DNA from: Gemmatimonadales bacterium
GTDB taxonomy: Bacteria; Gemmatimonadota; Gemmatimonadetes; Gemmatimonadales; GWC2-71-9
Direction: 5' to 3'
Length of the DNA: 64,000 bases
Assembly: GCA_035637355.1 (NCBI GenBank)
Contig: DASPXJ010000003.1
Location: forward strand, 79-64,078
The notes under the pieces are model-generated. The model was not told the DNA's origin and made no database searches. It saw only the letters and a program-made list of their open reading frames with translations. Positions 9,835 through 47,515 of this stretch are shown piece after piece. The translations under genes were made by a program, and so were the position numbers. Positions within the stretch are counted from its first letter, which is position 1, and every line of letters begins with the position of its first letter.

Positions 9835-9845
9835 GGGGAGACGCC

Positions 9846-11122: not shown

Positions 11123-11125
11123 CCG

Positions 11126-16783: not shown

Positions 16784-16793
16784 GGAGCGAGCA

Positions 16794-17156: not shown

Positions 17157-17158
17157 CG

Positions 17159-19090: not shown

Positions 19091-19101
19091 AGAGGAGCGA
19101 G

Positions 19102-19722: not shown

Positions 19723-19725
19723 CCA

Positions 19726-22434
19726 GTGACTGTCCCGGCGGTCTCAGAGCGCGATCTCGCCGTTCTTCGCTCTTTCGCCCGCCGGATCGATCCGTCGGAC
19801 GCCGGGGCGCATAACAACCTCGGCGTTCTCTATTACCAGAAGGGCCTCGTCCCCGAGGCCATCGAGCAGTTCACGCGGGCGCTGGAGCTCGACCCGCGCA
19901 TGCAGGTCGCGCAGCGCAATCTCGAAATCGCGTATCACAACACCGGCTTCTACGACCGGCGCGTCAACGAGCTCCAGGAGCGGCTGCGCCAGGCGCCCGA
20001 CGAGCGTGACGCGCGCTGGGAGCTGGGCCGCACGTACGCGATTCTCGGGGCGCACGAAGAAGCGGTCGCCGAATTCGAGGAGCTGCTGGCGCACAAGTCG
20101 AAGGACGTGGCGTCGATCATTCAGCTCGGGCTCGCCGAGAAATCGCGCGGCCGGCTGGAAATCGCGACCGAATGGTTTCTGCGGGCGGTCGAGGAAGACC
20201 CCGATTCGTCCGTCGTCCACTTCTATCTCGGCGAGGTCTACTACAATCGTGGCTTGAACGAGCCGGCGCTCACCGCGCTGGAGCGCGCGGTGTCGCTCAA
20301 TCCCGACAACGCGAACGCCCATTACCTGATGGCGTTCGTGCTGGGCGACATGGGTCGGCATCAGGACGCGCGCGCCGCGTCGAAGCGCGCGATTCAGCTC
20401 AATCCGCCGCTGGCGCGCGCGCAGACGAATCTCTCGCTGGAACGCTACCGCGCCGAGCGGCAGTCGGCCGAGCAGCGGTTGCGCGAGCAGCCCGCGCCGG
20501 AGGTGGCCGAGGGCAGCGAGCTGGCGCACTACAACCTGGGGCTCGCGTTCCGCCAGCGGGGCTATTACGCGGAGGCGTTGCGCGAGTATCGGCTCGCGAT
20601 CGAGCGCGGCGAGGACCGCCGGCTGGTGCGCCAGGCGATGGCGGAGGTCTACCTCCTGAAGCGGGACTTCACGGACGCCCTCGAGCTGTACGAGTCGCTG
20701 ATCCACGAGGTCCCGGACTCCCCCAAGCTGTGGAACGAGCGCGGCGTCGTCTTGCATCAGGCGGGCCGCCCCGCCGAGGCGTTGACGTCCTACCGGCAGG
20801 CGACGGAGGTCGATCCGCGCTACGCGCTGGCCTGGAACAACGTGGGCGTGGTGCTCGCGCACCAGAGCGACACCGAGGCAGCGATCGAGGCTTTTCGCAA
20901 GGCGTTACAGCTCAGCTCCGTCTTCGTGGGGGCGAGGCTCAATCTGGCATTGCTGCTGACGCATCTGCGCCGCTTCCAGCTGGCCCTCGAAGCCTATCGC
21001 CAGGTGCTCGCCGACCAGCCGGCCTCGGCGCCCGCCTGGAACGGCGTCGGGCTGGTGCTGGTGGAGCTGAAGCGGTTCACCGATGCGCGCAACGCCTTCG
21101 TCCGGGCGGTCGAGGCGGATCCGCACAACGCCGGCGCGCACTACAACCTGAGCTTCACGCTCTCGAATCTCGGGGATTACGACGGCGCGTTGCGCGCCAC
21201 CAAGCGCGCCCTCGAGCTCGATCCCTACTACGTCTCGCAGAAGTTCGCGCTCGCGATCGACCTGCAGTACGAAACGGTGTCGATCGGCATCGTGCCGGAG
21301 ATCTCGGCCGACGTCACCGCCGAGAACCTCGGTGCCGAGTTTGCGTTCGACCAGCGGCTGCTCGACAACATTTTCCAGGAGCTCGAGCCGGCGGCGACGG
21401 CAGCGCAGCCGGCGCCTGCGGGGCTCGCCAAGAAACCCGACGATCCCCTCGCGCTGGCGCGCGACTACGTGAGCAAGGGGATGATGGACCTCGCGGTCGC
21501 CGAAGCGATGCGCGCCGTGCAGCGCGGCGCCGACCGCGGCCAGGCGGCGACGCTGCTGGGCGACATCTACGCGCGGCGCGGGCTGCACGGCGAGGCACTC
21601 GAGCGCTACCGCGAAGCGCGCACGCTGGACGCGGCGAATGCCGGCGCGGCGTTGGGCGAAGTGAAGAGCCTGCTGGCGATGCATCGCTCGGCCGAGGCCC
21701 TGCCGTTGGCCGAGGAGCGCGCCGCCAAGGCGCCGGAAGACGTGGAGGTGCTGGTCGCGGCCGCCAAGGCGCGCGCCGCCACGGGCGATGCGGCGGGCGC
21801 GCTTACCGCGCTGCGGCAGGCGCAAACGCGCGCGCCGGACCGCGCCGACCTCCACAAGCTCCAGGGCGACATCGCCCTCAAGGTCGGGGACCGTCAGGGC
21901 GCGCGGGCGGCGTACCGGTCCGCGCTCGATCTCGACGAGGGCTTCGTCCAGGTCTGGCTCGACCTCGGGCGGCTGCACGAGCAGGACGAAGCATGGCCCG
22001 ACGCGCAGCACGCGTACGAAGCGGCGCTCGACGCCCTCCCCACGTTCCACGAGGCGTCACTGGCGCTCGCCGATCTGCTGCGCCGCTCGGGCAGCGTGCA
22101 CGCGGCCGTGGTGCGGCTGGCGGATATGCTGGAGCAGGATCCCTACGACATGGATGCGCTCCTGCTGCTCGGACGGACGCTGCTCGACGACAAGCGCAAC
22201 GCCGAGGCGCTCGAAGCCTTCCGGCGCGCCCTCAAGTTCGATATCGAGCATACCGGCGCGCTGTTCTACCTCGGCGCGACGCTCGCGCGGCTGCAGCGCT
22301 ACGGCGAGGCGGTCGACGCGTGGGAGCGCGTGACGCGCATCGATCCGGGCGGGCCGTTCGCGCAGCGCGCGCGCCTGCATGCGCGCACCGCGGTCGACCT
22401 GCAACACATCTTCTCCACCTCGGACGCGGCGTAA
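19726..22434 (+). CDS. large tetratricopeptide-repeat protein (902 aa)
   Basis: Repeated A-x3-Y/F...A...L.L.P TPR signatures along the whole length (e.g. AHNNLGVLYYQKGLVPEAIEQFTRALELDP). 3-nt gap after cheC. Confidence 0.75.
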   Translation: MTVPAVSERDLAVLRSFARRIDPSDAGAHNNLGVLYYQKGLVPEAIEQFTRALELDPRMQVAQRNLEIAYHNTGFYDRRVNELQERLRQAPDERDARWELGRTYAILGAHEEAVAEFEELLAHKSKDVASIIQLGLAEKSRGRLEIATEWFLRAVEEDPDSSVVHFYLGEVYYNRGLNEPALTALERAVSLNPDNANAHYLMAFVLGDMGRHQDARAASKRAIQLNPPLARAQTNLSLERYRAERQSAEQRLREQPAPEVAEGSELAHYNLGLAFRQRGYYAEALREYRLAIERGEDRRLVRQAMAEVYLLKRDFTDALELYESLIHEVPDSPKLWNERGVVLHQAGRPAEALTSYRQATEVDPRYALAWNNVGVVLAHQSDTEAAIEAFRKALQLSSVFVGARLNLALLLTHLRRFQLALEAYRQVLADQPASAPAWNGVGLVLVELKRFTDARNAFVRAVEADPHNAGAHYNLSFTLSNLGDYDGALRATKRALELDPYYVSQKFALAIDLQYETVSIGIVPEISADVTAENLGAEFAFDQRLLDNIFQELEPAATAAQPAPAGLAKKPDDPLALARDYVSKGMMDLAVAEAMRAVQRGADRGQAATLLGDIYARRGLHGEALERYREARTLDAANAGAALGEVKSLLAMHRSAEALPLAEERAAKAPEDVEVLVAAAKARAATGDAAGALTALRQAQTRAPDRADLHKLQGDIALKVGDRQGARAAYRSALDLDEGFVQVWLDLGRLHEQDEAWPDAQHAYEAALDALPTFHEASLALADLLRRSGSVHAAVVRLADMLEQDPYDMDALLLLGRTLLDDKRNAEALEAFRRALKFDIEHTGALFYLGATLARLQRYGEAVDAWERVTRIDPGGPFAQRARLHARTAVDLQHIFSTSDAA

Positions 22435-22437
22435 CGC

Positions 22438-23574
22438 ATGACGATCGAAGGACCGCTCCGCGAGCTCGGCATCCACGACGTCTTCCAGCTGCTCGACCTC
22501 AGCCGGAAGACGGGGGCGCTCCGCGTCACCTCGGAGCTGCGCCACAATGAGGGGAAGATCTACTTCGACAACGGCGTCGTCGTCTCGGCGGAGATCCGCA
22601 GCAACCCTCATCCCCTCGGCGCGTTGCTGCTGCGCACCGGCAAGATCGCCGAGGCCGACCTCGAGCGCGCGCGCGACATGCAGCAGCGCCAGGGGGACAA
22701 GCGCCGGCTCGGCGAGATCCTCGTGTCGCTCGGCGTGATCACGCAGCGCGAGGTCGAGCGCCAGGTCCACTTCCAGATCGAGGAAGTCGTCTTCGAGGTG
22801 ATGAGCTGGAACGAAGGCTACTTCTCGTTCGCCGAAGAGGCCGAGAGCAAAGTCCCCACCGAAGTGACGGTCCGCATTCCCGTCGAGGCGCTGCTGATGG
22901 AGGGGGCGCGGCGCATCGACGAGTGGTCGCGCATCGAGAACCGCATTCCCCACATCGGCGTCGTGCCGTCGCTCGCGCCGCCGCCCGAAGGCGGAGGCGG
23001 CGAGCTCGACCTCCTGCCGCCGGAATGGGAAGTGCTCGCGCTGATCGACGGCCAGCGCTCCATCCGCGGGTTGGCGACGGAGCTGGGACGCTCGGACTTC
23101 GAGGTCGCCAAAACGCTGTTCGGTCTCGAGAGTGCCGGCGTCATCGTGCTCATGGACCCCGGGACGTCGAAGCGCGGCCGTCCCACCGGCTCGGCGGACC
23201 TGCCCGAGCTCGTGGCGAAGGCCGAGCGCGCGCTGCAGGCGAAGGATCTGGACGCCGCGCGCGCCGCGGCGGAGCAAGCCGGAAGCATGCAGCCGCACGA
23301 TGCGACCATCCATCTCCTCCTCGGCAGGATTCATCTGGCGCAGGGGCACGGGTCGGCCGCGGCCGAAGAGCTGCGGCGCGCGCTGCGGCTCGATCCGCAG
23401 CTCGCCGCGGCCCACCGCCAGCTGGGTTTCGCGCTCGTGTCGATGGGCCGCTTTGCCGAAGCGGTCGCCAGCTGGGACGAGTGGGAGCGAGTGGCCCGCA
23501 GCCCCGATGAAGAGGCGCAACGATCCGAGGTGAAGCGCGCGCGCGACGCGGCCCGGGTGTTCAGCCATGGCTGA
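22438..23574 (+). CDS. PATAN/DUF4388 domain - TPR protein (paralog 1)
   Basis: N-terminal GPLRELGIHDVFQLLDLSRKTGALRVTS...GKIYFDNGVVVSA matches the DUF4388/PATAN signature. C-terminal TPR repeats. Paralogous to 27790-29406. Confidence 0.7.
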   Translation: MTIEGPLRELGIHDVFQLLDLSRKTGALRVTSELRHNEGKIYFDNGVVVSAEIRSNPHPLGALLLRTGKIAEADLERARDMQQRQGDKRRLGEILVSLGVITQREVERQVHFQIEEVVFEVMSWNEGYFSFAEEAESKVPTEVTVRIPVEALLMEGARRIDEWSRIENRIPHIGVVPSLAPPPEGGGGELDLLPPEWEVLALIDGQRSIRGLATELGRSDFEVAKTLFGLESAGVIVLMDPGTSKRGRPTGSADLPELVAKAERALQAKDLDAARAAAEQAGSMQPHDATIHLLLGRIHLAQGHGSAAAEELRRALRLDPQLAAAHRQLGFALVSMGRFAEAVASWDEWERVARSPDEEAQRSEVKRARDAARVFSHG

Positions 23575-24412
23575 CGACATTCGCGCACTCTCCGCCCAGC
23601 TCGCCCAGGATCCGCAGAGCCTCGTGTTCCTGCGGCTCGGCGAAGCATTGCGCCGCAAGGGCCAGCTCGATGCCGCGCTGCGCGTCGCCATGAATGGGCT
23701 CGAGCGGCATCCGCATCTCGCCGATGCCCACGACTTGTATGCGCGGATCCTCACGGACAAGCACGACTACGAGCGCGCGTTCGACGAATGGGACATGGCG
23801 GTGCGGATCGCGCCCAATCATACCGGTGCGCTGAAGGGACTCGCGTTCCTCTATTTCAAGGTCGGTGACCCGGCGCAAGCGGAAGCGCACCTCGAGAGCG
23901 CGCGGAAAGTCGAGCCGGACGATCCAAGCATCGACCAGGCGATCGCCATGATGCGGAAAGGCGTGAGTCCCCCGGCACCGGAACAAGGCGCCGCCCCTTC
24001 GCCGCCCGCCGCCGCCGCTTCATCCGCCGCCCCTCCCGTCGCTGCTCCGCTCGACGAAGCCCGCGTGTTCGCGGGTCTCGAGGGGGCCCACGAGGGCCTG
24101 CTCCTCATCGACGGCGCCGGCCGCGTCCTCGGTGGGGCATTGCGAAATCGATCGGGGTCCGATGTCACGGATGCCGTCGCCGCCTACCTCGCCGGCGTGT
24201 CGCAGGAAGCCGCGCGCACGGCGAAGCTGCTGGGACTGGGCGCCTGGAACGGCCTGTCGGCGGAAGGGCAGCACGGCAACGTACATCTCGCGCATCCCAC
24301 CCCCGAAGCGCTGCTGCTCGTAGTCCGGGAGCGGGGGATGCCGCTGGGCCGGCTCGCGATTCTCGCGCAGCGCGCGACCACCATGGCGCGTCGCTGGTTG
24401 GAGAAGACGTGA
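23567..24412 (+). CDS. TPR - Roadblock/LC7 fusion protein
   Basis: N-terminal TPR repeats, an Ala/Pro linker, then a C-terminal EGLLLIDGAGRVLGG...ALLLVVRERGMPLGRL pattern typical of the Roadblock/LC7 fold. 8-nt overlap with the upstream gene. Confidence 0.6.
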   Translation: MADDIRALSAQLAQDPQSLVFLRLGEALRRKGQLDAALRVAMNGLERHPHLADAHDLYARILTDKHDYERAFDEWDMAVRIAPNHTGALKGLAFLYFKVGDPAQAEAHLESARKVEPDDPSIDQAIAMMRKGVSPPAPEQGAAPSPPAAAASSAAPPVAAPLDEARVFAGLEGAHEGLLLIDGAGRVLGGALRNRSGSDVTDAVAAYLAGVSQEAARTAKLLGLGAWNGLSAEGQHGNVHLAHPTPEALLLVVRERGMPLGRLAILAQRATTMARRWLEKT

Positions 24413-24756
24413 GCACCGCGCTCGATCTGATCACGCGCGTGCGCGGTGTGCGCGGCGCGATGCTCGTCTCGGCGGATGACGGGATCGTCGTCGCCGAGCA
24501 GCTCATGGAAGGGATCAAAGGCGGCGCTGTCGCCGCGTTGGCCGCGAGCCTGGCGGGCCGGTTGCGCCGGGCGATGGAAGCGGCGGGCACCGGCACGAGC
24601 GTCTTCTGGCATCTGCAGGCGGAGCAGGGCGCGCTCCTGGTGGTGCCGGGAGGAAATGCCGCGGGCGGAATTCTGGTCGTCGCCGTCGCCGAGCCGGACG
24701 TGAACATCGGCCTGGTGCGCCTCGAGCTGCTGCGCGCGGCGGAGTCGGTCGTATGA
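24409..24756 (+). CDS. Roadblock/LC7 domain protein (MglC-like size)
   Basis: 115 aa. VRGAMLVSADDGIVVAE...ALLVVPGG...ILVVAVAEPDVNIGLVRLEL. GTGA overlap upstream and ATGA overlap downstream. Confidence 0.7.
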   Translation: MSTALDLITRVRGVRGAMLVSADDGIVVAEQLMEGIKGGAVAALAASLAGRLRRAMEAAGTGTSVFWHLQAEQGALLVVPGGNAAGGILVVAVAEPDVNIGLVRLELLRAAESVV

Positions 24757-25229
24757 GCCCGCAGACCCGCGCCGTCGAAAGCTGGACGCTGCAACCGCTC
24801 ACCGACTTCGTGCGCGAATCCTCCGTGCGTCTTGTACTGGTACTGACCCCTTCAGGACAGGTGCTGGCGCAGTCCGGGTTCTCGCGCGCCGTCGACGTGA
24901 TGTCCGCAGCAGCGCTCGCCGCGGCGATCGTCGCCTCCACGGGAGAGCTGGCGCGGCAGCTGCGGCAGCCGCCCTTTGCGGCGCTCAGTCATCAGGGTCC
25001 CAAGAACGGGTTCTTTCTGGCCACGCTCACGGCCGACCGCGGGACGCTGGCGGTGCTCGCCGTCTACGATCTCGATGTTTCATCGCTTGGCCTGGTGCAG
25101 TTATTCTATGAGCAACTTGCGGCGGACTTGAAGACGGCGAGCCCAAAGGGCGCAGTCCCGAAGCAGGTGCTGGCCGCGGACTTCGAGCGCGAGCTGACGG
25201 ACAGCCTCAACACGCTGTTTGGGAGATAG
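24753..25229 (+). CDS. mglB: MglB-like Roadblock/LC7 GTPase-activating protein
   Basis: 158 aa, directly upstream of mglA as in the Myxococcus mglBA operon. VRLVLVLTPSGQVLAQSG...VSSLGLVQLFYEQLAADL and the C-terminal LNTLFGR tail resemble, as far as I recall it, MglB (SLGLVRLRIKKASDEL...DNLFSE). Confidence 0.7.
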   Translation: MSPQTRAVESWTLQPLTDFVRESSVRLVLVLTPSGQVLAQSGFSRAVDVMSAAALAAAIVASTGELARQLRQPPFAALSHQGPKNGFFLATLTADRGTLAVLAVYDLDVSSLGLVQLFYEQLAADLKTASPKGAVPKQVLAADFERELTDSLNTLFGR

Positions 25230-25232
25230 CCC

Positions 25233-25835
25233 GTGTCCCTGGTCAACTTCACGAGCCGCGAGATCACGTGCAAAATCGTCTACTACGGGCCGGGACGGTC
25301 CGGAAAGACGACGAATCTCCATTACGTGTATGGGCGCGTGCCCGAGACGCGGCGCGGCCGCATGGTCTCGCTGGCCACGCAGACCGACCGCACGCTGTTC
25401 TTCGACTTCCTGCCGATCGATCTGGGGCAAATCTCCGGCTTTTCGACCCGCTTCCAGCTCTACACGGTGCCCGGCCAGGTTTACTACGATGCCACCCGGC
25501 GGCTCGTACTCCAGGGCGCGGATGGCGTCGTGTTCGTCGGCGACAGCCAGGCGCGGCAGCTGGATGAAAACATCGAAAGCCTGCAGAACCTGCAGAGCAA
25601 TCTCCTGGAGCACGGCGTCGATGTGCGCACCATGCCCCTGGTGATGCAGTACAACAAACAGGATCTGCCGCGGGAGCTGATCCTCACGCAGGCCGAGCTG
25701 GACGACGCGCTCAACTTCCGCAGCGTGCCGAGTTTTGCGGCCGACGCGCTGCACGGCAGAGGCGTGTTCGAGACGCTGAAGGCGATTTCGGAACTGGTCC
25801 TGAAGAAACTCGCGGCCGGGAGCCCGGCGGCATGA
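25233..25835 (+). CDS. mglA: MglA-family Ras-like small GTPase
   Basis: [22 protein letters not shown] (P-loop), [11 protein letters not shown] (switch I with intrinsic Arg), [14 protein letters not shown] (switch II Gln), QYNKQDLP (G4). Near-collinear with M. xanthus MglA as recalled. GTG start. Confidence 0.9.
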
Positions 25836-27790
25836 CCAGCACGCTCAACCCCCGCTTCACCTTCGACACGTTCGTCGTGGGCGCCGCCAACCGTCTGGCC
25901 GTCACCGCCGGGCGGACCGTGGCCGAGAATCCCGGCTCGGCCTACAACCCGCTCTTCATTTATAGTGGCTCCGGACTGGGCAAGACCCACGTGCTCATGG
26001 CCGTCGGTCACGCGGCCAAGGCGCTCGCGACCCAGCTCAACATCGAGTACCTCACGCTCGACGAGTACGTGGAGGCATTCCACGCCGCCATCGCCGCCGG
26101 TCAGGGCGATGCGTTCCGGCGTCGCTTCCAGAACGTGGACGTGCTGCTGGTCGACGACGTCCAGTTCCTGACGAATCGCAAGGAGATGCAGGCCGAGTTG
26201 CTGCGTCTGACGGAGGCGCTGCAGCAGGCGGGGCATCAGATCGTGCTCGCGAGCGACCGGCCGCCGGCCGAGATCGCGGACCTGGACGAGCGGCTGATCT
26301 CCCGCTTCTCGGGCGGGCTGGTCGTCGACATGGGGGTTCCCGATTACGAGACGCGCGTCGCGATTCTGCGGCGCAAGGCGGACGAGCGCGGGACGTCGTT
26401 CCAGCCCGGCGTGCTCGAGACGGTCGCGAAGATCGACTACCCCAACGTGCGCGAGCTCATGGGGGCGCTGAATCGCCTCATCGCCTTCCAGGCCGTGAAT
26501 GACACGCCGATCAATGAAGAAGCCGCGCGAAAAGTGCTCGGCGTTCCGACCGCTGCCTCATCGACCGCCGCCTCATCTACCGCCGCCGCACCTACCGTGG
26601 CCTCATCAGATGAGTTCTCCCAGTTCTTAACGGACGTCACGGTTACCGTCGGTAAAGCGGTCGAGGCGTGGCGCGCGCGCGTGGCGGAGGCGGTGATCCG
26701 GTGGGAGGGGGAAGGCTACCGCACCGGCAGGCTGGAGAAGCTGCTCGACCAGGAAACGCCGGCCGCCGTCGACGAAGCGATCGCCGCCTACGTGCAGGAT
26801 GTGGAGCGGCTCAAGACGCTCGAGGCGGAAGTCGCCGTGCTCGATCCGCAGGCGGCGGGCGAAAAGGCGTTTCGCGATCCCGATCACATGGACGAAGCCG
26901 AAGCTGCCGCGGCGAAGGTGCGGGACGGCGCGGCGCCGCCGCCCGCGCCCTCCGCCGCCTTCCCGCTCGAGACCTACATCGGGGGGTCGTCCAACGAGGT
27001 CGCGCTCAGCGCCGCCCGCGACGCGATCGCCAAGCCGGGGAAGAAATACAACCCTGTCGTCATCGTCGGCCCGAGCGGCCTCGGCAAGACCCACCTGCTC
27101 AACGCCATCGGCCTCGAGCTCGCCCGGAAGAAAAACGCGATCGTCGCCTGCCTCTCCACGCAGCAATTCGTCGACGAGTTGATCGCCGCGATCGACGGCA
27201 ATCGCGTCGACTGGTGGCGCGCCCGTTATCGCCGCGCCACGGCGCTGTTGCTCGACGACATCCAGCTCCTGGCCGGCAAGGATCGGACACAGGAAGAGCT
27301 GTTCAATCTCTTTAACCAATGCATCGACGCGGACCACCAGCTCGTGTTCACCGCGCCCGCCCACCCCAACCGGCTCGAGGGCCTGGAAGAGCGCATCGTC
27401 TCGCGGCTCGAGGGGGGGCTCGTCGTCGAGATTGGCGAGCCCGACAAGGATCTCCGTCGCGGCGTGCTGGAGCGGCTGCTCAGGAATCAGCGCGTGGTGG
27501 TGGAGCCTGCGCTGCTCGATTATCTGGTGGACCGGCCCGCCGATTCGGTACGCAGCCTGACGGGGATGGTGCAGCGGGTGGTGGAAGCGGCGGCGGCGCA
27601 GGACGCGCCCGTGACCGCCGGTCTCGCGCGCGACGTGCTGGAGGGCGCCCCTCCACCCGGAACCCGGCGCACGACCGGGCTGCGCACCAGCGGCATCGTC
27701 GTCTCCAGCGCCGGCGGCGTGCGCAGCCGCGAAAAGATGGTGTGGGACTGGCCCTCGTCCGCTGACCGCGTGATCGAGGATCTCCGCTAA
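25832..27790 (+). CDS. tandem double DnaA-type AAA+ (domain III) protein lacking DnaA domains I/II and IV
   Basis: Module 1: [76 protein letters not shown]. Module 2: [71 protein letters not shown] overlap with the mglA stop. Confidence 0.85.
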
Positions 27791-29406
27791 TGGCGATCAA
27801 AGGCTCGCTCAAGGAAGCGTCGCTTCCCGACGTGCTGCAGCTGCTCGCGTTGGGCCAGAAGACGGGCTGCCTGTCGATCGCCGACCGTTCCAACTTCGGC
27901 TACATCTATTTCGACAAGGGCCGCATCGCCTACGCGTCGATCGTCAACCGCCGCGACCGCCTGGGCGACATCCTCGTCAAGCACGAAAAGATCACCCAGG
28001 AGCAGCTCGACACCGCGATTCATCGCCAGGCCAAGGAACGCGACAAGAAGCTGGGCGAGATCCTCGTCAACCAGACGGTGATCTCGCAGCAGGAGCTCGA
28101 GCGCTACATGCGCATGCAGATCGAGGAGTCGGTCTACTACCTGTTCACGTGGACGCAGGGGACGTTCAACTTCGAGGCCGACGTCCGGCCGGAGCAGCAG
28201 GACTTCCTCGTCTCGATCAACCCCGAGTCGCTGCTGCTCGAGGGCGCCCGCCGCGTGGACGAGTGGGGCCTGATCGAAAAAAAGATCCCGTCGTTCGATC
28301 TCATCTTCCTCGTCGATCGCGACCGCCTCGCCATCAGCGATGCGAAGCTCACCGAGGTGCAGGAGCGGCTGCTGCCGCTGCTCGACGGCTCGCGCGACGT
28401 GAACCAGGTGATCGAAGACTCCGGGATGGGCGAGTTCGAGGTGGGCAAGGCGCTGTACGGGCTCGTCACGGCGGGGTTCCTGCATCGCGCGGGGCGCACC
28501 GCCAGCGCCGAAGACGTGAAGATGACCGACGCGCGCGTCGAGGAGCACCGCAATCTCGGCATCGCCTTCTACAAGACGGGCATGCTCGACGAGGCCGCGC
28601 GCGAGTTCCGCCGGGTTGCGGAGCTGCGGGGCAGCGACGCCAACGCGCACTTCTTCATCGGGCTCGTCGCGCTCAAGCAGGCGCGCTGGCGCGAGGCGAT
28701 GGAAGCGCTGCGCCTCGCGGCCGAGAAGGGCGGCTCGCGGCCCGCCGTGCTGCACAATCTCGGGTTGGCGTACGAACAGCTCGGCCGGCTGGAGGACGCG
28801 GAGGCGGCGTATTCCGAGGCGGCGACGCGCGCGCGCACCGACCCGCGCGTGTACGTGGGGTGGGGCGTCGTGGCCCTGAAGCAGGGCGACCTGGCGAGCG
28901 CGGCCGGCCGGCTCGACCGGGCGAAAGAGCTCTTTGCCGAGAAGATTCCGCCGATCTGGTTCTGGGCGCGCTCCCTCGCCGCCGCCGCCGCCGGGGATTT
29001 CGAGACCGCGGAGCAGGTGGCCGTGCAGGCCGTCGCGGCCCATCCCCAGAACGGCGTGCTGCGCAACAACCTTGCCGTGCTGCACGAGCTCGCCGGTGAG
29101 CTGCCCGAGGCGGAAGACCTGGCGCGCGCCGCCTTGCAGGACGAGCCGTCGCTGCCGCAGCTCTCCAAGAACCTCGGCGATCTCGCCTACCGCGGCTCCC
29201 GCTACGACGAAGCGTGGGGCCTGTATCAGCGCGTCATCGAGCTGTCCCCGGAGCTGGGCGACGACGTGTACTTCAAGCTCGGCAACATCGCCTACAAGCG
29301 GAACGACCGGGAGCAGGCGAGCGCGCTGTGGCATCGCGCCCTCGAGCTGAATCCGAAGCACGAACTGGTGAAAGCGAATCTGGACACCTTGAGCACGTTG
29401 TCGTGA
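27790..29406 (+). CDS. PATAN/DUF4388 domain - TPR protein (paralog 2)
   Basis: GSLKEASLPDVLQLLALGQKTGCLSIADRSNFGYIYFDKGRIAYA followed by a shared LLLEGARRVDEW block and a long TPR region. TAATG junction upstream. Confidence 0.7.
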   Translation: MAIKGSLKEASLPDVLQLLALGQKTGCLSIADRSNFGYIYFDKGRIAYASIVNRRDRLGDILVKHEKITQEQLDTAIHRQAKERDKKLGEILVNQTVISQQELERYMRMQIEESVYYLFTWTQGTFNFEADVRPEQQDFLVSINPESLLLEGARRVDEWGLIEKKIPSFDLIFLVDRDRLAISDAKLTEVQERLLPLLDGSRDVNQVIEDSGMGEFEVGKALYGLVTAGFLHRAGRTASAEDVKMTDARVEEHRNLGIAFYKTGMLDEAAREFRRVAELRGSDANAHFFIGLVALKQARWREAMEALRLAAEKGGSRPAVLHNLGLAYEQLGRLEDAEAAYSEAATRARTDPRVYVGWGVVALKQGDLASAAGRLDRAKELFAEKIPPIWFWARSLAAAAAGDFETAEQVAVQAVAAHPQNGVLRNNLAVLHELAGELPEAEDLARAALQDEPSLPQLSKNLGDLAYRGSRYDEAWGLYQRVIELSPELGDDVYFKLGNIAYKRNDREQASALWHRALELNPKHELVKANLDTLSTLS

Positions 29407-30185
29407 GCAAAGCTCCTCCGGAGCGAGCGTTCGATGCGTTGACCGAGAAGATCTCGCGTGAGCGGGGAGTGAGCTGCGGATCGTACAAAGACAAGTGCTT
29501 GAAGCGCCGCATCGCGGTCCGCATGCGCGCCCGCGGCGTCCACTCCTACGAAGACTACGCCACGGTGCTCGATCAGGATGCGCACGAGTATCAGGAGCTG
29601 CTCGACGCGCTGACGATCAACGTCACCAAGTTCTTCCGCAACCCCGAAACATGGACGGCGCTCCGTCCCTACCTCGAGCGACTGGCACAGCAGCGATCGA
29701 GCCTGCGAATCTGGTCGGCCGGATGCTCCTCCGGTGAGGAGCCCTACACGATCGCGGTCCTGCTGGCCGAGATCGGGGCGGGCGGATTCATCGATGCAAC
29801 CGACGTCGATCGCCTGAGCCTCGAACGGACGCGGCAGGCGAAGTATCCCGACACAGCGTTCAGTGAGATGCCGGTGACGTTGCGGCGCCGCTATTTTCAG
29901 GACGGCCAGCCCACGGCCCCGGTGCGCGAGCTGGTGCAGGTGCGCGCCCACGATCTGACCCGGCACCCACCTCCGCGCCCACCGTACGATCTCATCGCGT
30001 GCCGCAACGTGGTCATCTACTTCGAGCGAGCGGCGCAGGAGCGGCTGTTTCAGGTGTTCGTGGACGCGCTGGCGCCGGGCGGCGTGCTGTTGCTCGGCAA
30101 GGTCGAGACGCTGTTCGGCCCCGCGCGGAACAAACTGGCGCTCGAGGACCCGCGCGAGCGGATCTACACGAAGCCTCCGTCGTGA
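29403..30185 (+). CDS. cheR: chemotaxis protein methyltransferase CheR
   Basis: TKFFRNPETW, IWSAGCSSGEEPYTIA (SAM site), IACRNVVIYF. GTG 29403 overlaps the upstream stop (GTGA). Confidence 0.85.
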   Translation: MSKAPPERAFDALTEKISRERGVSCGSYKDKCLKRRIAVRMRARGVHSYEDYATVLDQDAHEYQELLDALTINVTKFFRNPETWTALRPYLERLAQQRSSLRIWSAGCSSGEEPYTIAVLLAEIGAGGFIDATDVDRLSLERTRQAKYPDTAFSEMPVTLRRRYFQDGQPTAPVRELVQVRAHDLTRHPPPRPPYDLIACRNVVIYFERAAQERLFQVFVDALAPGGVLLLGKVETLFGPARNKLALEDPRERIYTKPPS

Positions 30186-30664
30186 AGGAAGTTATCGTCA
30201 AAGTCGCCGACTGGGCGGCCGAGCGCGGGGATGGCGTGCTGATCACCCTCGGGCTCGGTTCCTGCGTCGCGATCATGCTGCACGATCCGCAGACGAAAGC
30301 CGGCGCGATGGCCCACGTCCTCCTGCCCTCGATCAGCCTGGCGCGCGACATCACCAACCGAGCCAAGTTTCCCGAGACCGCCGTGCCGTTGCTGGTCGAG
30401 CGTCTCAAGGCCCTGGGCGCCGATCCGCGGCGCCTGGTCGCCAAGCTCGCCGGCGGTGCCAGCATGTTCAGCCAGCTCGTCACACCCGGCACGATCCAGA
30501 TGGGCGAGCGCAACCTTCTGGCGTCGCGCAGTGCGCTGCGCGCGGCGCAGATCCCCATCATTCGGGAAGCGGTGGGCGGTGAGCGCGGCCGCAGCGTGCG
30601 CTTTCACGTCACCGACGGGCGCGTGGAAATCCGCTCCGTGGGGGAGCATGCCGACGTCATCTGA
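30182..30664 (+). CDS. cheD: chemoreceptor glutamine deamidase CheD
   Basis: [30 protein letters not shown] motifs. GTGA overlap with cheR. Confidence 0.85.
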
Positions 30665-31775
30665 CGCGCGGCCGACGGTCGTCGTGGCCGATGACAGCGC
30701 CCTGATGCGGCGCGTGCTCGTCGACGTCCTGGGCGGCGGCGATGCGGACAACGGCGCGTTCCGCGTGGTGGCCACGGCGCGCGATGGATTCGACGCCATC
30801 CGCAAAATCCACCAGCACAAGCCCGACGTCGTGACGCTCGATCTCGAGATGCCGCAGCTCGACGGCCTGGGCGCGATCGGCTACATCATGTCGGAATCGC
30901 CGCTCCCCATCGTCGTCGTCAGTGCGCACGCGGGGCCGGGCACCGCCACCGCGATCCGCGCGCTCGAGCTGGGCGCCGTCGAGATCGTCGCCAAGCCGCC
31001 CCCGCCACCCGATGGGTTCGGCCATCCGCGCGCCGCGCTCGCCGCGCTGGCGCCGCAGCTCATCGCCGCGGTGCGGCGCGCGCTCGCCGCGGACGTGTCG
31101 CACGTCAAAGTCCTGGCGCGGCCGCCGGCACCCGTCGTCCACCCTCCGGAGCTGGCACTGCGGGGCCGCGCGGCGCTCGCCGTGGGCGTGGCTGCGTCGA
31201 CCGGCGGGCCACGCGCCCTGACCGATCTCGTGCCGCGTCTCCCGACCGGCCACGGTGCGGCAGTGCTCATCGTGCAGCACATGCCGCCGAAGTTCACGCG
31301 CAGTCTCGCAGAACGGCTCGACTCGATAAGCCGGTTGCGTGTCGTCGAAGCGGACGACGGCGCACCGGTCGTCGCCGATACGGCGTACGTGGCGCCGGGC
31401 GATTATCATATGCGGGTGCGTTTCGCCCTCGACGGTCCCGTGATCGCGCTCGATCAATCCGCGCCGATCCACGGCGTCCGCCCCGCGGCCGATCCGTTGT
31501 TCCGCTCCATCGCCGAGGTGTATGGCGCACGCGGCGTCGGCGTCGTGCTGACGGGGATGGGGCGCGACGGCGCCGACGGGCTGCGCGCCATGCATGATGC
31601 GGGCGCGACCGGCGTCGCGCAGGATCGCGAGTCGGCGGTCATCGCCGGCATGCCGGTCGCCGCGGTGCAGGCGGGCGGGGTCGATGCCGTCCTGCCGCTC
31701 GGCCAGATCGCCGATTGCGTCGCGGCCGAGCTGGCACGAAGAGGGGGAGGGGGAGGGGGGGGCTCCAAGGAATGA
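30648..31775 (+). CDS. cheB: chemotaxis response regulator protein-glutamate methylesterase CheB
   Basis: REC domain ([26 protein letters not shown]) plus esterase domain ([30 protein letters not shown]). ATG 30648. Confidence 0.85.
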
Positions 31776-32194
31776 AGGGCTATCTGCTGGTGCGCGCCGA
31801 AGGAAAAGCGTACGGCTTCCCGGTCAATCGGGTGCTGGAGGTCGGCGATGCCACCGAAGTGCTCAGTATTCCGCGCAAGCTCCCGGCAATACGCGGCCTG
31901 ACGCCGTTGCGCGGCCGGCTCGTCCCCCTGATCCACCTCGGTGCGTTTCTCGCCGGCGGGGAAGCTCCCGCGGCGGCGCCCAGCGGTGCGCGCACCATCG
32001 TGCTGGTCGAGCTCGGCGCCGGCGGACGACATGTGGCGTTCGAGGTGGATGACGTGGATTCCGTCGTCCGCGAGCAGCCGCTGCCCGTTCCCCGCGGGCA
32101 CACGCTGCCTTGGGCGGCGGGTGTCGCGGAGCAGGAGGGCGGACACCTGGTGCCGATCCTCGACCTGGACGCCCTCGGAGACCGCATCGGATGA
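31772..32194 (+). CDS. cheW: CheW-like coupling protein
   Basis: 140 aa. [20 protein letters not shown]...[17 protein letters not shown]...[12 protein letters not shown] overlap with cheB. Confidence 0.7.
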
Positions 32195-32661
32195 CGACGA
32201 CCGGGACCACGGGTGACGACGTCCAACTGGTCACCTTCAAGGTCGGCGGCCAGGACTTTGCGTTCAACATTTTTCAGGTGGAGCGCATCCTCCGGTATGA
32301 AGCGCCCGCGCCGCTGCCCAAAGCGCCCGAGTTCCTCGAAGGCGTGCTGCAGTATCAGGGCGGCGCCGTCCCGCTCGTCGATCTGCGCAAGCGTCTCGGC
32401 ACGCCGGCGCCGCTGCGGGAAGACACGCGCACCGTCATCCTCGAATTCGAGGGCGGCAAGATCGGCGTCATCGTCGATGCCGTGACCGAGGTGATGCAGG
32501 TGGCGGCACAGGCGGTGACGCCGCCGCCGGGAATCGTGAAGGGGCTGGCCGCGGAATACATCGCGGGCCTGGTCGTGCAAAACGGCCGCACGATCGTCGT
32601 GTTGAATACGAACAAGCTGCTCAATTCGAAGGAGAAACTGGCCTTGCAGGAAGTGTCATGA
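32191..32661 (+). CDS. cheW: CheW-like coupling protein
   Basis: 156 aa. LVTFKVGGQDFAFNIFQVERIL...LEGVLQYQGGAVPLVDL...IGVIVDAVTEV. ATGA overlap upstream. Confidence 0.8.
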   Translation: MTTTGTTGDDVQLVTFKVGGQDFAFNIFQVERILRYEAPAPLPKAPEFLEGVLQYQGGAVPLVDLRKRLGTPAPLREDTRTVILEFEGGKIGVIVDAVTEVMQVAAQAVTPPPGIVKGLAAEYIAGLVVQNGRTIVVLNTNKLLNSKEKLALQEVS

Positions 32662-33527
32662 CGGAGTCGCCGGTCGCCGCGTTGCGTCGCGAATACGATA
32701 TCATCGCGCGCCAGCTCGAGGGTGGGGGCCCGCCGGGAAACGCCGAGCGCGAAGCCGCCAAGCGCGAGATCATCGCGTTTTTCAAGAAGATCGACGGGAT
32801 GCTGGGCGAGATGACGCAGCTCAAAGACGACATCCGCCAGCTCGTCGATCGCTACAAGCAGATCGCCGCAGACACGAAACAGGCGGGCGCGCCCGAGTTC
32901 ACCGGCCAGCGGCCCGTGCTGCACGCCGATCACATCGGCGCGACCACGTTCATCGAAAAAGGCTGGAGCCTCATCTCCCTGGGCGACCATGCCGGCGCGA
33001 TTCAGGCGCTCACCAAGGCGCTGCAGCTCTCGCCGGGCGAGACGCAGGCCGAGTCGCTGCTCGGCTGGGCGCAGATGCTGCACGAGGATTACGACGACGC
33101 GCTCGGCACCTTTCAAAAAGTGCTGATGAAAGAGCCGGCGAACTCGCTGGCGCGCATCAACGTCGGCTACATCTGCCTGAAGAAGCGGATTTTCGGCGAG
33201 GCGATCGAGCACCTGTCGAAGGCGATCCGGCTCGACAACGACAAGAAGGCGACGCTGTACGCGCACTTCTATCTGGGGCTCGTCTACCTGCAGCGCGAGA
33301 TGTTCGAGGATGCGGAGACGTTCTTCCAGAAGACACTCAAGCTCGGCCCGAATCTGATCGAAGCCTATTACGAGCTGGGCCGCGCGCACTGGTTCGCGGG
33401 CGATCAAGCGAAGGCGAAATCCACCTGGGACGAGGGCTTCAAGGCGAACAAGTTCAATCCCTGGGGCAAGCGGTGCCAGGAGATGCTGGACCTCGTCGCC
33501 AAGGGCGAGGAGCCGCCGCGAGACTAG
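32658..33527 (+). CDS. TPR-repeat protein, terminal gene of the che/mgl operon
   Basis: 289 aa. Coiled-coil-like N-terminus then TPR repeats (GDHAGAIQALTKALQLSP, YDDALGTFQKVLMKEP, FGEAIEHLSKAIRLD). ATGA overlap with cheW. Confidence 0.7.
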   Translation: MTESPVAALRREYDIIARQLEGGGPPGNAEREAAKREIIAFFKKIDGMLGEMTQLKDDIRQLVDRYKQIAADTKQAGAPEFTGQRPVLHADHIGATTFIEKGWSLISLGDHAGAIQALTKALQLSPGETQAESLLGWAQMLHEDYDDALGTFQKVLMKEPANSLARINVGYICLKKRIFGEAIEHLSKAIRLDNDKKATLYAHFYLGLVYLQREMFEDAETFFQKTLKLGPNLIEAYYELGRAHWFAGDQAKAKSTWDEGFKANKFNPWGKRCQEMLDLVAKGEEPPRD

Positions 33528-46404: not shown

Positions 46405-46405
46405 C

Positions 46406-47491: not shown

Positions 47492-47515
47492 ATTTCCTAT
47501 ATTAGCTCCCCACAG

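What the first reader, a model, noticed from the sequence alone, without database searches (positions are those of the whole stretch)
25832..27790. Tandem double DnaA-type AAA+ protein without DNA-binding domain, translationally coupled to mglA
This 652-aa protein consists of two complete copies of the DnaA domain III ATPase. Copy 1 begins exactly like DnaA domain III ([38 protein letters not shown]). It keeps Walker [13 protein letters not shown], sensor [10 protein letters not shown], box [14 protein letters not shown] and sensor [16 protein letters not shown]. Copy 2 (from about aa 375) has [54 protein letters not shown] and [13 protein letters not shown], so both modules look catalytically competent. 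There is no domain I/II and no domain IV helix-turn-helix, and the protein ends about 40 aa after the second lid, so it cannot be a DnaA-box-binding initiator. It resembles two Hda-like units in one chain, joined by a ~140-aa linker that includes a (TAASS)n repeat. Its ATG overlaps the mglA stop (ATGA, 25832-25835) and its stop overlaps the next PATAN gene's ATG. I know of no described role for a DnaA/Hda-family ATPase in a small-GTPase or chemosensory module. It could be an ATP-dependent oligomerising switch within the polarity machine, or a link between polarity signalling and replication control.
Basis: partly seen in the sequence, partly recalled or inferred. Interest (0 to 1): 0.9.

Follow-up and report, generated by a model that had tools for sequence, protein, structure and literature searches.

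The report
Tandem DnaA-like ATPase beside MglA
A soil bacterium of the phylum Gemmatimonadota makes a protein built from two copies of the ATP-binding engine of the replication initiator DnaA, with no DNA-binding part, and it is always encoded next to cell-polarity and chemotaxis-type signalling genes, which suggests the DnaA engine was re-used as a signalling switch.

Summary
ORF 25832-27790 (+) encodes 652 aa with two DnaA domain III AAA+ modules and no domain I, II or IV. Its start overlaps the mglA stop (ATGA). Its stop overlaps the start of a PATAN-TPR gene (TAATG).

It is not an assembly artefact. At least 399 GTDB species genomes encode a relative, and the best 80 are all Gemmatimonadota. 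About 46 clusters at 50% identity share the architecture: module 1, a family-specific helical domain of about 105 aa, module 2, a flexible tether, and a conserved C-terminal motif (EK-VW-WP...RLIEE). Median dN/dS is 0.15.

Both modules score as DnaA, not Hda. Walker A and B are nearly invariant in both modules. Sensor I and the arginine fingers are often lost, which fits a nucleotide-binding switch better than a motor.

The constant partner is the PATAN-TPR gene, not mglA. Other Gemmatimonadota have only dDnaA, PATAN-TPR and an MA-type peptidase gene at the same chromosomal site. Relatives are fused to a receiver (REC) domain or to TPR repeats.

Best reading: a non-replicative, DnaA-derived ATP switch or assembly factor of a PATAN/MglA polarity module under Che control. 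A replication link is neither supported nor excluded. I found no literature on it. Verdict: a new variant of the DnaA/Hda family.

The parts
25832..27790 (+). dDnaA: 652-aa tandem DnaA-domain-III AAA+ protein (whole ORF with stop)
25844..26539 (+). Module 1 (aa 5-236). It has the full DnaA domain III motif set: Walker A GLGKT, Walker B LLVDD, sensor I SDRP, box [11 protein letters not shown], sensor II NVRE.
   Evidence: (DnaA 282 bits, Hda 87); dN/dS 0.07
26547..26614 (+). Disordered low-complexity spacer (aa ~240-261), containing a 15-bp tandem repeat x4.1 (TAASS)n
   Evidence: pLDDT <50 for aa 241-264; dN/dS 0.39
26615..26932 (+). Family-specific helical inter-module domain (aa 262-367). 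Consensus DEFxxFL..W..R..LRW..EG.RT.RLE.LL...F..DV.RL....F.DPD...AE.
   Evidence: Conserved in 33 members. Stand-alone model pLDDT 88. No Pfam hit, no PDB neighbour, not domain IV. dN/dS 0.14.
26963..27643 (+). Module 2 (aa 378-604). Walker A GLGKT, Walker B LLLDD, box [11 protein letters not shown] and sensor II SVRS are kept. Sensor I is degenerate (TAPAH).
   Evidence: (DnaA 224 bits, Hda 101); dN/dS 0.18
27650..27727 (+). Flexible tether (aa 607-632)
   Evidence: pLDDT <50; length-variable in the alignment
27728..27787 (+). Conserved C-terminal motif [21 protein letters not shown] (K635, W640 and P641 kept in >=90% of members)
   Evidence: Present in members that have a PATAN neighbour and replaced by a REC domain in P0216. 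dN/dS 0.12.
25233..25835 (+). mglA (small Ras-like GTPase). Its stop overlaps the dDnaA start (ATGA).
   Evidence: immediately upstream in 70/72 Gemmatimonadales loci
27790..29406 (+). PATAN (DUF4388/PatA_N)-TPR protein, 538 aa, with an MshE-related c-di-GMP-binding motif (aa 57-110). Its start overlaps the dDnaA stop (TAATG).
   Evidence: Immediately downstream in 76/76 loci. It is the only partner kept in all PATAN-containing contexts.
24753..25229 (+). MglB-like Roadblock protein
23567..24756 (+). Two further Roadblock-domain genes (TPR-Roadblock 23567-24412; Roadblock 24409-24756)
22438..23574 (+). First PATAN-TPR protein, which also carries the c-di-GMP motif
16109..22434 (+). CheW (16109-16783), CheA (17033-19090), CheC (19102-19722), 902-aa TPR protein (19726-22434)
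29214..33527 (+). CheR, CheD (29999-30664), CheB (30456-31775), an ORF without Pfam hit (31594-32052), CheW (32110-32661), TPR protein (32658-33527). Starts are those of the longest ORFs and are uncertain.
33473..34369 (+). Peptidase_MA_2 protein, the third member of the minimal conserved core (dDnaA, PATAN-TPR, PepMA)

Best explanation
The protein is a non-replicative descendant of DnaA. It consists of two DnaA domain III AAA+ modules, a family-specific helical domain between them, and a tethered C-terminal peptide. It defines a family found in Gemmatimonadota. I propose that it acts as an ATP-dependent switch or assembly factor, a matchmaker of the kind seen in the initiator/loader AAA+ clade. 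Its proposed client is the PATAN-TPR protein encoded right after it.

In this lineage the pair is wired into a Che phosphorelay and an MglA/MglB/Roadblock GTPase polarity module. PATAN domains contact the type IV pilus motor in cyanobacteria, and MglA sets pole identity in Myxococcus. So the likely output is polar placement or activity of a motility or envelope machine.

Shown here:
- the architecture and the absence of DNA-binding domains;
- purifying selection on every part;
- near-invariant nucleotide-binding residues in both modules, with patchy hydrolysis residues;
- strict synteny and overlapping stop/start codons with mglA and PATAN-TPR.

Inferred:
- ATP binding at both sites;
- module 1 as the hydrolysing site in this protein, with module 2 as a weaker-binding regulatory site;
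- docking of the C-terminal motif on the PATAN(-TPR) partner;
- the cellular output.
For: 1. Architecture. Two Bac_DnaA stretches and no domain I or IV. The linker and tail are unrelated to domain IV. The linker has no structural neighbour.

2. A real family under selection. About 46 full-length representatives at 33-57% identity. At least 399 species genomes, with the best 80 all Gemmatimonadota. dN/dS is 0.07 to 0.18 for the modules, linker domain and tail.

3. Motif pattern in 33 members.
- Walker A Lys: 33/33 in module 1 and 32/33 in module 2.
- Walker B Asp: 33/33 and 32/33.
- Sensor II Arg: 31/33 and 29/33.
- Arg finger: 17/33 and 28/33.
- Sensor I Asp: 20/33 and 5/33.
Nucleotide binding is what is conserved, not turnover.

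4. Context.
- MglA lies immediately upstream in 70/72 loci and PATAN-TPR immediately downstream in 76/76.
- The whole che/TPR/PATAN/Roadblock/MglB/MglA cluster is syntenic down to 33-39% identity.
- The minimal form is RluD, (Roadblock), dDnaA, PATAN-TPR, PepMA, without che or mglA, at the same chromosomal site.
- A third form is che, TPR, PATAN, dDnaA.

5. Fusions. One member has a C-terminal REC domain beside Hpt/REC phosphorelay genes. There the REC replaces the tail motif. Another relative is a TPR plus DnaA-III fusion. More distant MshEN plus DnaA-III proteins sit inside a type IV pilus gene cluster.

6. Partner biology. Both PATAN proteins carry an MshE-related c-di-GMP motif above the curated cut-off. 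[quoted passage not shown] MglA/MglB-PATAN adjacency is known in several phyla (PMC4316618).
Against: - There is no direct evidence of any interaction or activity. Everything functional rests on gene context, fusions and motif conservation.
- No type IV pilus or flagellar genes lie in the window. It is flanked by YggS-DivIVA-PNP-IleRS-LspA-RluD upstream and by the dcw cell-division cluster downstream. The output could therefore be division or pole related rather than motility.
- Module 2 keeps the K-x-R-T segment that contacts ssDNA in DnaA filaments (alignment). The Arg is kept in 18/33 members. Nucleic-acid binding is therefore not excluded.
- The relative placement of the two modules is not resolved (pTM 0.47).
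- I could not confirm that the same genome has a canonical dnaA (one search was uninformative).
Confidence: 0.55

Rival explanations
1. Replication regulator. The DNA-binding-less DnaA modules co-oligomerise with genuine DnaA (Hda-like or filament-capping). This would couple polarity or chemosensory state, or the cell cycle, to replication initiation.
For: - Both modules are DnaA-like rather than Hda-, DnaC- or IstB-like: 282 and 224 bits on TIGR00362.
- Module 1 is 45% identical to B. subtilis DnaA III with rmsd 1.5 A, so DnaA-DnaA type interfaces could persist.
- Box VII arginines are present in both modules of this protein.
- The locus sits between DivIVA and the dcw cluster.
Against: - No N-terminal clamp-binding motif. 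The N-terminus is simply the start of domain III.
- Hda models score below their cut-offs.
- No DnaA-box enrichment: 1 match against 1.9 expected.
- Arg fingers and sensor I are lost in many members while gene order is kept.
- Every context and fusion found is signalling related (PATAN, TPR, Che, MglA, REC/Hpt). None is replication related.
Confidence: 0.12
2. Nucleoid- or ssDNA-binding positioning ATPase. It would be functionally analogous to the ParA-like PpfA/ParC proteins encoded in che operons. ATP-dependent binding to nucleic acid would place or partition a cytoplasmic chemosensory or polarity complex.
For: - The operon encodes CheA, CheW x2, CheC, CheD, CheR and CheB. No MCP or stand-alone CheY gene was seen among the scanned ORFs. 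It also has many soluble TPR scaffolds, so a cytoplasmic complex is plausible.
- Module 2 retains the DnaA K-x-R-T ssDNA-contact segment.
- ParA-type positioning ATPases in che clusters are a precedent (my own knowledge, not tested here).
Against: - No dsDNA-binding domain.
- The ssDNA-contact Arg is kept in only 18/33 members and is Glu in module 1 of this protein (sequence reading).
- The minimal-core genomes have no che genes at the locus at all.
Confidence: 0.1
3. Largely inert scaffold. A pseudo-ATPase in which ATP is only a structural cofactor, and the protein merely bridges TPR/PATAN proteins.
For: In about 10 of 33 members neither site has a full catalytic set (sensor I Asp plus the relevant Arg finger), although Walker A and B persist. 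TPR fusions exist.
Against: In this window's clade, module 1 keeps every DnaA catalytic motif and is the most constrained part (dN/dS 0.07). Sensor II Arg is kept in 31/33 and 29/33 members. That is unexpected for a purely structural nucleotide.
Confidence: 0.1
4. Artefact: an assembly chimera, a fused gene pair, or a decaying dnaA duplicate.
For: A low-complexity 15-bp repeat lies near the middle of the ORF. One oddity elsewhere, P0203, is a III-III-IV protein on a 2.6-kb contig.
Against: The same end-to-end architecture and length (645-697 aa) occur in hundreds of independent assemblies and at least 399 species genomes. The reading frame is intact in 70 orthologues with dN/dS 0.15.
Confidence: 0.01

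Closest known systems
DnaA, bacterial replication initiator (domain III, AAA+ initiator clade)
   Same: Both modules have the DnaA domain III fold and motif order (Walker A, Walker B, sensor I, box VII, sensor II, lid). Module 1 is 45% identical to B. subtilis DnaA III with TM 0.94. The best HMM for each module is TIGR00362.
   Different: No domain I or II and no domain IV helix-turn-helix. Domain III is duplicated in tandem, with a new helical domain between the copies and a C-terminal peptide motif. The gene is not next to dnaN or an origin, and there is no DnaA-box cluster. It sits in a signalling operon.
Hda / HdaA (DnaA-related regulatory inactivator)
   Same: A DnaA-type AAA+ module without a DNA-binding domain. 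NCBI names this family 'DnaA/Hda family protein'.
   Different: Hda is a single module of about 230 aa with an N-terminal beta-clamp-binding motif. Here there are two modules, no such motif, and Hda HMM scores of 87 and 101 bits against a cut-off of 194.8. The context is unrelated to replication.
DnaC / DnaI / IstB helicase-loader and transposition-helper ATPases
   Same: Sister AAA+ proteins of the initiator/loader clade that work as ATP-dependent switches or matchmakers for a protein partner. This is the mode of action proposed here.
   Different: Only weak HMM matches: IstB 47-50 bits against a cut-off of 200. Those proteins have a single module and different N-terminal partner-binding domains.
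PatA-type (PATAN-REC) regulators of cyanobacterial Tax/Pix chemotaxis-like systems, and the MglA/MglB/Roadblock polarity module of Myxococcus and Thermus
   Same: The same partner set in one operon: PATAN domains, Che proteins, MglA, MglB and extra Roadblock proteins. PATAN is a known output domain that binds PilB1 and PilC. MglA-PATAN adjacency is known.
   Different: None of the described systems contains a DnaA-like ATPase. Here the PATAN proteins carry TPR repeats instead of a receiver domain.
Tandem (type II) AAA+ proteins such as p97/Cdc48, NSF, ClpB
   Same: Two AAA+ modules in one chain, often with one active and one mainly nucleotide-binding ring.
   Different: A different AAA+ clade. 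Foldseek matches to p97 are only topological (TM ~0.27, rmsd >20 A). There is no pore-loop or unfoldase signature, and the modules are separated by a 140-aa insert.
MshEN + DnaA-III fusion proteins in a type IV pilus cluster (undescribed; L088, P0207, P0210, P0259)
   Same: DnaA domain III modules without domain IV, recruited to a motility/c-di-GMP context. They are the best-scoring non-family relatives.
   Different: They lack the helical inter-module domain and the C-terminal motif. They carry an N-terminal MshEN domain and very long inserts. In a rough NJ tree they group with canonical DnaA.

Membership tests
DnaA replication initiator (TIGR00362 / PF11638+PF00308+PF08299) | AAA+ domain III with Walker A/B, sensor I, box VII and sensor II | tested here: met
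   PF00308 matches twice, E 6e-102. Module 1 has all motifs. Module 2 has all except the sensor I Asp.
DnaA replication initiator (TIGR00362 / PF11638+PF00308+PF08299) | C-terminal domain IV helix-turn-helix that binds DnaA boxes | tested here: not met
   No PF08299 hit. Pfam scans of the linker and tail are empty. hhalign against a domain IV profile gives probabilities of 0.6% and 0.4%. The linker model has no PDB neighbour.
DnaA replication initiator (TIGR00362 / PF11638+PF00308+PF08299) | N-terminal domain I (DnaA_N) and a flexible domain II | tested here: not met
   The protein starts at residue 5 of the domain III profile and has no PF11638 hit.
DnaA replication initiator (TIGR00362 / PF11638+PF00308+PF08299) | Whole-protein score above the curated equivalog cut-off | tested here: inconclusive
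   The whole protein scores 504.8 bits, above 343.9, but only because two partial matches add up. Each module alone is below the cut-off at 282 and 224 bits. This explains why JGI names it 'chromosomal replication initiator protein DnaA'.
DnaA replication initiator (TIGR00362 / PF11638+PF00308+PF08299) | Origin-proximal context (dnaN, DnaA-box clusters) | tested here: not met
   The neighbours are che, mglAB, PATAN and TPR genes. There is 1 near-consensus DnaA box in 64 kb against 1.9 expected.
Hda / HdaA (TIGR03420, NF006571) | HMM score above the curated cut-off | tested here: not met
   87.3 and 101.5 bits per module, and 182.1 for the whole protein, against a cut-off of 194.8. HdaA models score 72 or less against about 300.
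Hda / HdaA (TIGR03420, NF006571) | Single AAA+ module with an N-terminal beta-clamp-binding motif (QL[SP]LPL type) | tested here: not met
   There are two modules. The N-terminus [14 protein letters not shown] is the canonical start of DnaA domain III, and no clamp motif appears in the family consensus.
Hda / HdaA (TIGR03420, NF006571) | Stimulates DnaA-ATP hydrolysis together with the DNA-loaded clamp (RIDA) | not testable with these tools
   This needs biochemistry.
AAA+ initiator/loader clade working as an ATP switch | Conserved nucleotide-binding residues (Walker A Lys, Walker B Asp) | tested here: met
   K51 33/33, D108 33/33, K419 32/33 and D475 32/33 in 33 diverse members.
AAA+ initiator/loader clade working as an ATP switch | ATP-dependent oligomerisation or partner loading | not testable with these tools
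   The AF2 monomer model has pTM 0.47, and no multimer prediction was available.
Gemmatimonadota dDnaA family (defined here) | Module 1, helical inter-module domain, module 2, and a tail motif EK-VW-WP...RLIEE | tested here: met
   The window protein aligns end to end with 32 representatives at 32-56% identity to it. The linker HMM and tail motif were recovered in members from other contexts.
Gemmatimonadota dDnaA family (defined here) | Adjacent, overlapping PATAN-domain gene | tested here: met
   TAATG overlap in the window. 76/76 GTDB loci. Also. The REC-fused member is the exception.

The most novel reading that the evidence does not exclude
The tandem DnaA-like ATPase keeps DnaA-type protomer interfaces and hetero-oligomerises with the cell's genuine DnaA, or binds unwound DNA through module 2. 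Che and MglA/PATAN polarity signalling would then directly gate chromosome replication. That would be a physical link between motility or polarity state and the cell cycle, in a locus lying between DivIVA and the dcw cluster.
Probability: 0.08. Interest if true: 0.9.

Novelty: new variant of a known kind. Interest (0 to 1): 0.62.

Why it matters
DnaA's AAA+ module is known almost only from replication (DnaA, Hda) and, more distantly, from helicase loading and transposition. This would be a clear case of that module being duplicated, stripped of its DNA-binding parts, and fixed as a core component of a signalling and polarity operon.

The family is found across Gemmatimonadota, one of the most abundant and least studied soil phyla. 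If the proposal is right, it adds an ATP switch to the GTPase (MglA), the phosphorelay (Che) and the likely c-di-GMP input (PATAN motif) that set bacterial cell polarity. It also gives PATAN domains, whose mechanism is poorly understood, a defined enzymatic partner.

There is a practical point too. The family is widely mis-annotated as 'chromosomal replication initiator protein DnaA', because two partial matches add up past the equivalog cut-off. This can mislead origin prediction and dnaA-based genome rotation in Gemmatimonadota MAGs.

Tried and rejected
I used the C-terminal alignment A3 instead.
- An HMM search with the linker alone returned only short metagenomic fragments. It gave no new architectures or taxa.
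- The third homologue search used P0256, a DnaA_N-containing fragment that is 60% identical to module 1. I hoped to find the canonical Gemmatimonadota DnaA. Its full-length relatives are named as alphaproteobacterial DnaA and its domain III resembles dDnaA, so P0256 (1.6-kb contig) may be a chimera. The question of a canonical dnaA in this genome stays open.
- A neighbour-joining tree of all modules shows modules 1 and 2 as two separate groups within the main family, which fits one ancient duplication. It has no support values and long branches, so I draw nothing firmer from it.
- Foldseek of the whole model beyond DnaA gave only topological p97 matches.
- Foldseek of the linker gave nothing significant, best E 1.4.
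- I considered the C-terminal motif as an MCP-like CheR/CheB-binding pentapeptide (tethered aromatic motif). I rejected it as a membership claim, because the motif is not at the extreme C-terminus and persists in genomes whose locus has no CheR or CheB.
- I considered TPR as the tail's receptor. The che-TPR-PATAN-dDnaA variant keeps the motif beside a PATAN protein without TPR. PATAN is therefore at least as likely.
Full report
OBSERVATION

The ORF at 25832-27790 (+) exists and encodes 652 aa. Pfam finds the DnaA ATPase domain (PF00308) twice, with E 6e-102. It finds neither DnaA_N nor the domain IV helix-turn-helix. NCBIfam aligns residues 2-240 to positions 101-339 of the DnaA model, and the second half best to DnaA/Hda models. 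The two halves are 34% identical to each other, E 2e-44.

The nearest solved structures are DnaA domain III of B. subtilis, T. maritima and A. aeolicus. An AlphaFold2 model built on 33 family members has mean pLDDT 87.5. It superposes on B. subtilis DnaA III with target-normalised TM 0.94 and rmsd 1.5 A.

The gene start overlaps the stop of the upstream gene (gcATGAcc). Its stop overlaps the start of the downstream gene (cgcTAATGgcg). The upstream gene is a genuine MglA, E 1e-74 to M. xanthus MglA. The downstream gene is a 538-aa PATAN (DUF4388/PatA_N)-TPR protein. The (TAASS)n stretch is a 15-bp tandem repeat with 4.1 copies. It lies in a segment that the model predicts to be disordered, aa 241-264.

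1. Module 2 is not a complete catalytic copy. Where DnaA and module 1 have the sensor I motif SDRP, module 2 has TAPAH.

2. The '140-aa linker' is a short disordered spacer followed by a conserved helical domain of about 105 aa (aa 262-367). Its pLDDT is 75-95 in the full model and 88 when modelled alone.

3. The last 20 residues follow a disordered tether (aa 607-632) and carry a conserved motif, [10 protein letters not shown]...DRVIEDLR.

4. Taken separately, each module scores much higher on the DnaA model (282 and 224 bits) than on Hda (87 and 101 bits, cut-off 194.8). The units are therefore DnaA-like, not Hda-like. The two partial DnaA scores add up to 504.8 bits, above the equivalog cut-off of 343.9. 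That explains why JGI calls these proteins 'chromosomal replication initiator protein DnaA'.

IS THERE A CRYPTIC DNA-BINDING DOMAIN?

I found none.
- The linker and tail have no Pfam match even at E 10.
- Profile-profile comparison with a DnaA domain IV alignment gives probabilities of 0.6% and 0.4%.
- The linker model is a bundle of long helices with no significant neighbour in the PDB, best E 1.4.
- The window shows no enrichment of DnaA boxes: 1 match against 1.9 expected.

One caveat remains. Module 2 keeps the K-D-R-T segment that aligns with the K-E-R-T segment of A. aeolicus DnaA. From my own knowledge, that segment contacts single-stranded DNA in the DnaA filament. The Arg is kept in 18 of 33 family members.

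A REAL FAMILY, NOT A CHIMERA

- A search of 1.84 billion representatives at 50% identity returns about 46 full-length clusters (620-720 aa). They are 33-57% identical and align from residue 1 to about 651.
- A scan of one genome per GTDB species with the C-terminal motif finds 399 genomes that encode a relative. The best 80 are all Gemmatimonadota or Gemmatimonadales MAGs, including one closed chromosome, CP070666.1.
- Named members from other branches are also Gemmatimonadota.
- Across 70 orthologues, median dN/dS against the window gene is 0.07 for module 1, 0.14 for the helical domain, 0.18 for module 2 and 0.12 for the tail. It is 0.39 for the repeat-bearing spacer.

Every part except the spacer is therefore under purifying selection. 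The coverage-break or chimera scenario is refuted.

WHAT IS CONSERVED IN THE ATPASE SITES

Counts in 33 diverse members, module 1 then module 2:
- Walker A Lys: 33/33 and 32/33.
- First Walker B Asp: 33/33 and 32/33.
- Sensor II Arg: 31/33 and 29/33.
- Box VII arginine finger: 17/33 and 28/33.
- Sensor I Asp: 20/33 and 5/33.

In roughly ten members neither site has a full catalytic set, yet gene order is unchanged. The constant requirement is therefore nucleotide binding, not fast turnover. That pattern fits a switch or matchmaker rather than a motor.

In the window protein, module 1 is fully canonical and is the most constrained part. Module 2 lacks only the sensor I Asp. From memory, that Asp is the residue DnaA needs for its unusually tight nucleotide binding. 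Module 2 may therefore be a weaker, exchangeable site. This last point is inference.

GENE CONTEXT

In the window the gene sits in a tightly packed, same-strand cluster:
- CheW, CheA, CheC, a 902-aa TPR protein;
- PATAN-TPR, TPR-Roadblock, Roadblock, MglB, MglA;
- dDnaA;
- PATAN-TPR, CheR, CheD, CheB, an ORF without Pfam hit, CheW, a TPR protein, and an MA-type peptidase.

Among 80 GTDB loci, MglA lies immediately upstream in 70 of 72 informative cases. PATAN-TPR lies immediately downstream in 76 of 76. The whole cluster is syntenic. The same order holds for members only 39% and 33% identical.

MglA is not the universal neighbour, however.
- Four more distant members lie at the same chromosomal site as in the window, after IleRS and RluD. 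Their order is (Roadblock), dDnaA, PATAN-TPR (538-542 aa), MA peptidase. They have no che genes and no mglA there. The window's flanks are shown.
- Another branch has CheW, CheY, CheA, a STAND-like ATPase, CheW, CheC, TPR, PATAN, then dDnaA with an overlapping PATAN/dDnaA junction. It has no mglAB.

The invariant partner is a PATAN-domain protein. The minimal core is dDnaA, PATAN-TPR and the MA peptidase. The Che and MglA/MglB/Roadblock genes are an elaboration of that core, or were lost elsewhere.

FUSIONS

- One family member carries a C-terminal receiver (REC) domain in place of the tail motif. It sits next to Hpt-REC-Hpt-REC genes.
- Another relative fuses about 600 aa of TPR repeats to a DnaA-III module.
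- More distant proteins combine an MshEN c-di-GMP-binding domain with one or two DnaA-III modules. They lie inside a type IV pilus cluster (PilD ... PilB, PilT, PilC, PilS). They lack the helical domain and the tail, so they are a separate group.

The tail motif is present wherever a PATAN neighbour is present, including a PATAN protein without TPR. It is absent in the REC-fused form. This suggests that the C-terminus is the partner or input end and that PATAN is its likely receptor. This is inference.

PARTNER BIOLOGY

Both PATAN proteins of the window, and the PATAN-TPR partners in the minimal loci, carry an MshE-related c-di-GMP-binding motif above NCBI's cut-off.

[quoted passage not shown] It binds the pilus extension ATPase PilB1, and these regulators evolved from chemosensory systems (bioRxiv 10.1101/2021.06.11.447907).

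MglA/MglB-PATAN adjacency has been noted in several phyla (PMC4316618). That paper's Table S2 lists 'PATAN>MglA>-PATAN>' for Gemmatimonas aurantiaca T-27 starting at GAU_1409. The unnamed gene between MglA and PATAN may be the homologue in a cultured strain. I could not verify this.

Full-text searches for DnaA together with MglA, DUF4388 or MshEN found nothing relevant.

MOST LIKELY MECHANISM (confidence about 0.55)

The protein is a DnaA-derived tandem AAA+ protein that has left replication. I propose that it works as an ATP-dependent switch or assembly factor for the PATAN-TPR protein. In this lineage it operates inside a Che-controlled MglA/MglB polarity module.

Shown:
- the architecture;
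- the loss of DNA-binding domains;
- selection on all parts;
- conservation of nucleotide binding;
- synteny, overlapping stop/start codons, and fusions.

Inferred:
- ATP binding at both sites;
- hydrolysis mainly at module 1;
- tail-PATAN docking;
- an output on a polar machine, such as type IV pili or another pole- or division-associated complex.

The window itself has no pilus or flagellar genes. It lies between YggS-DivIVA-PNP-IleRS-LspA-RluD and the dcw cluster. A pole or division role is therefore as possible as a motility role.

RIVALS

- A replication regulator that co-oligomerises with DnaA (about 0.12).
- A nucleic-acid-binding positioning ATPase, analogous to ParA-like proteins of che operons (about 0.10).
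- A largely inert scaffold (about 0.10).
- An artefact (about 0.01; refuted).

I could not test whether the same genome has a canonical dnaA.

VERDICT

This is a new variant of the DnaA/Hda family: tandem, with no DNA-binding domains, with its own helical domain and tail motif, found in Gemmatimonadota, and with PATAN-TPR as its constant partner. It is present in databases only as 'DnaA/Hda family protein' or is mis-named DnaA, and I found no paper that describes it. Interest 0.62.

Noticed in passing
window 22438-23574 and 27790-29406; L090:12180-13802; L091:12694-14310: The PATAN(DUF4388)-TPR proteins carry an MshE-related c-di-GMP-binding motif (NF053729) at about aa 57-113, above the curated cut-off (40.8 to 56.7 bits against 38). 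This suggests that these PATAN proteins are c-di-GMP receptors.
   Followed up: partly
L088:3359-14973 (GCA_030620115.1, JAUXFG010000024.1): Four consecutive genes encode MshEN domains, three of them fused to one or two DnaA-domain-III modules (proteins of 983, 436, 398 and 1990 aa). They lie inside a type IV pilus cluster (PilD upstream; PilB, PilT, PilC and PilS downstream). This looks like a second, apparently undescribed recruitment of the DnaA ATPase module to a motility system.
   Followed up: partly
L087:9001-11217 (protein P0216): A family member with a C-terminal receiver (REC) domain replacing the tail motif. It is followed by Hpt-REC-Hpt-REC genes and preceded by a PAS hybrid histidine kinase and a REC-HD-GYP protein.
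   Followed up: partly
protein P0203 (673 aa, 2.6-kb ENA contig): Two DnaA domain III modules followed by a genuine domain IV (PF08299, 84.8 bits). It could be an evolutionary intermediate of the duplication, or it could be an assembly chimera.
   Followed up: no
window 23567-25229: Three Roadblock/LC7-domain genes in a row (TPR-Roadblock, Roadblock, MglB-like) precede mglA. This is reminiscent of the multi-Roadblock GAP complexes described for Myxococcus.
   Followed up: no
window 16109-34369: The che gene set (CheW x2, CheA, CheC, CheD, CheR, CheB) contains no MCP gene and no stand-alone CheY gene among the ORFs scanned. ORF 31594-32052 (152 aa) has no Pfam hit.
   Followed up: partly
window 9154-16242 and 36691-48925: The operon is inserted between YggS-DivIVA-PNP-IleRS-LspA-RluD and the dcw division/cell-wall cluster (RsmH, FtsI-type PBP, Mur ligases, MraY, MurD, MurC). 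The same upstream genes flank the minimal dDnaA, PATAN-TPR, PepMA locus in other Gemmatimonadota (L090, L091, L092).
   Followed up: partly
window 25832-27790 and homologues: Systematic mis-annotation. The two partial DnaA matches sum to 504.8 bits, above the TIGR00362 cut-off of 343.9. Many sources therefore name these proteins 'chromosomal replication initiator protein DnaA'.
   Followed up: yes
protein P0256 (357 aa, 1.6-kb ENA contig): A DnaA_N domain is joined to a domain III that is 60% identical to module 1 of the window protein. Its full-length relatives are named as alphaproteobacterial DnaA. It is possibly a chimeric contig.
   Followed up: partly
PMC4316618 Table S2 (Gemmatimonas aurantiaca T-27, GAU_1409 neighbourhood): The published neighbourhood string 'PATAN>MglA>-PATAN>' has an unnamed gene exactly where dDnaA sits in the window. 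A cultured strain may therefore carry the system.
   Followed up: no
L005:3035-3853: In the che-TPR-PATAN-dDnaA variant, a 272-aa STAND/AAA_22-type NTPase gene sits between CheA and CheW.
   Followed up: no
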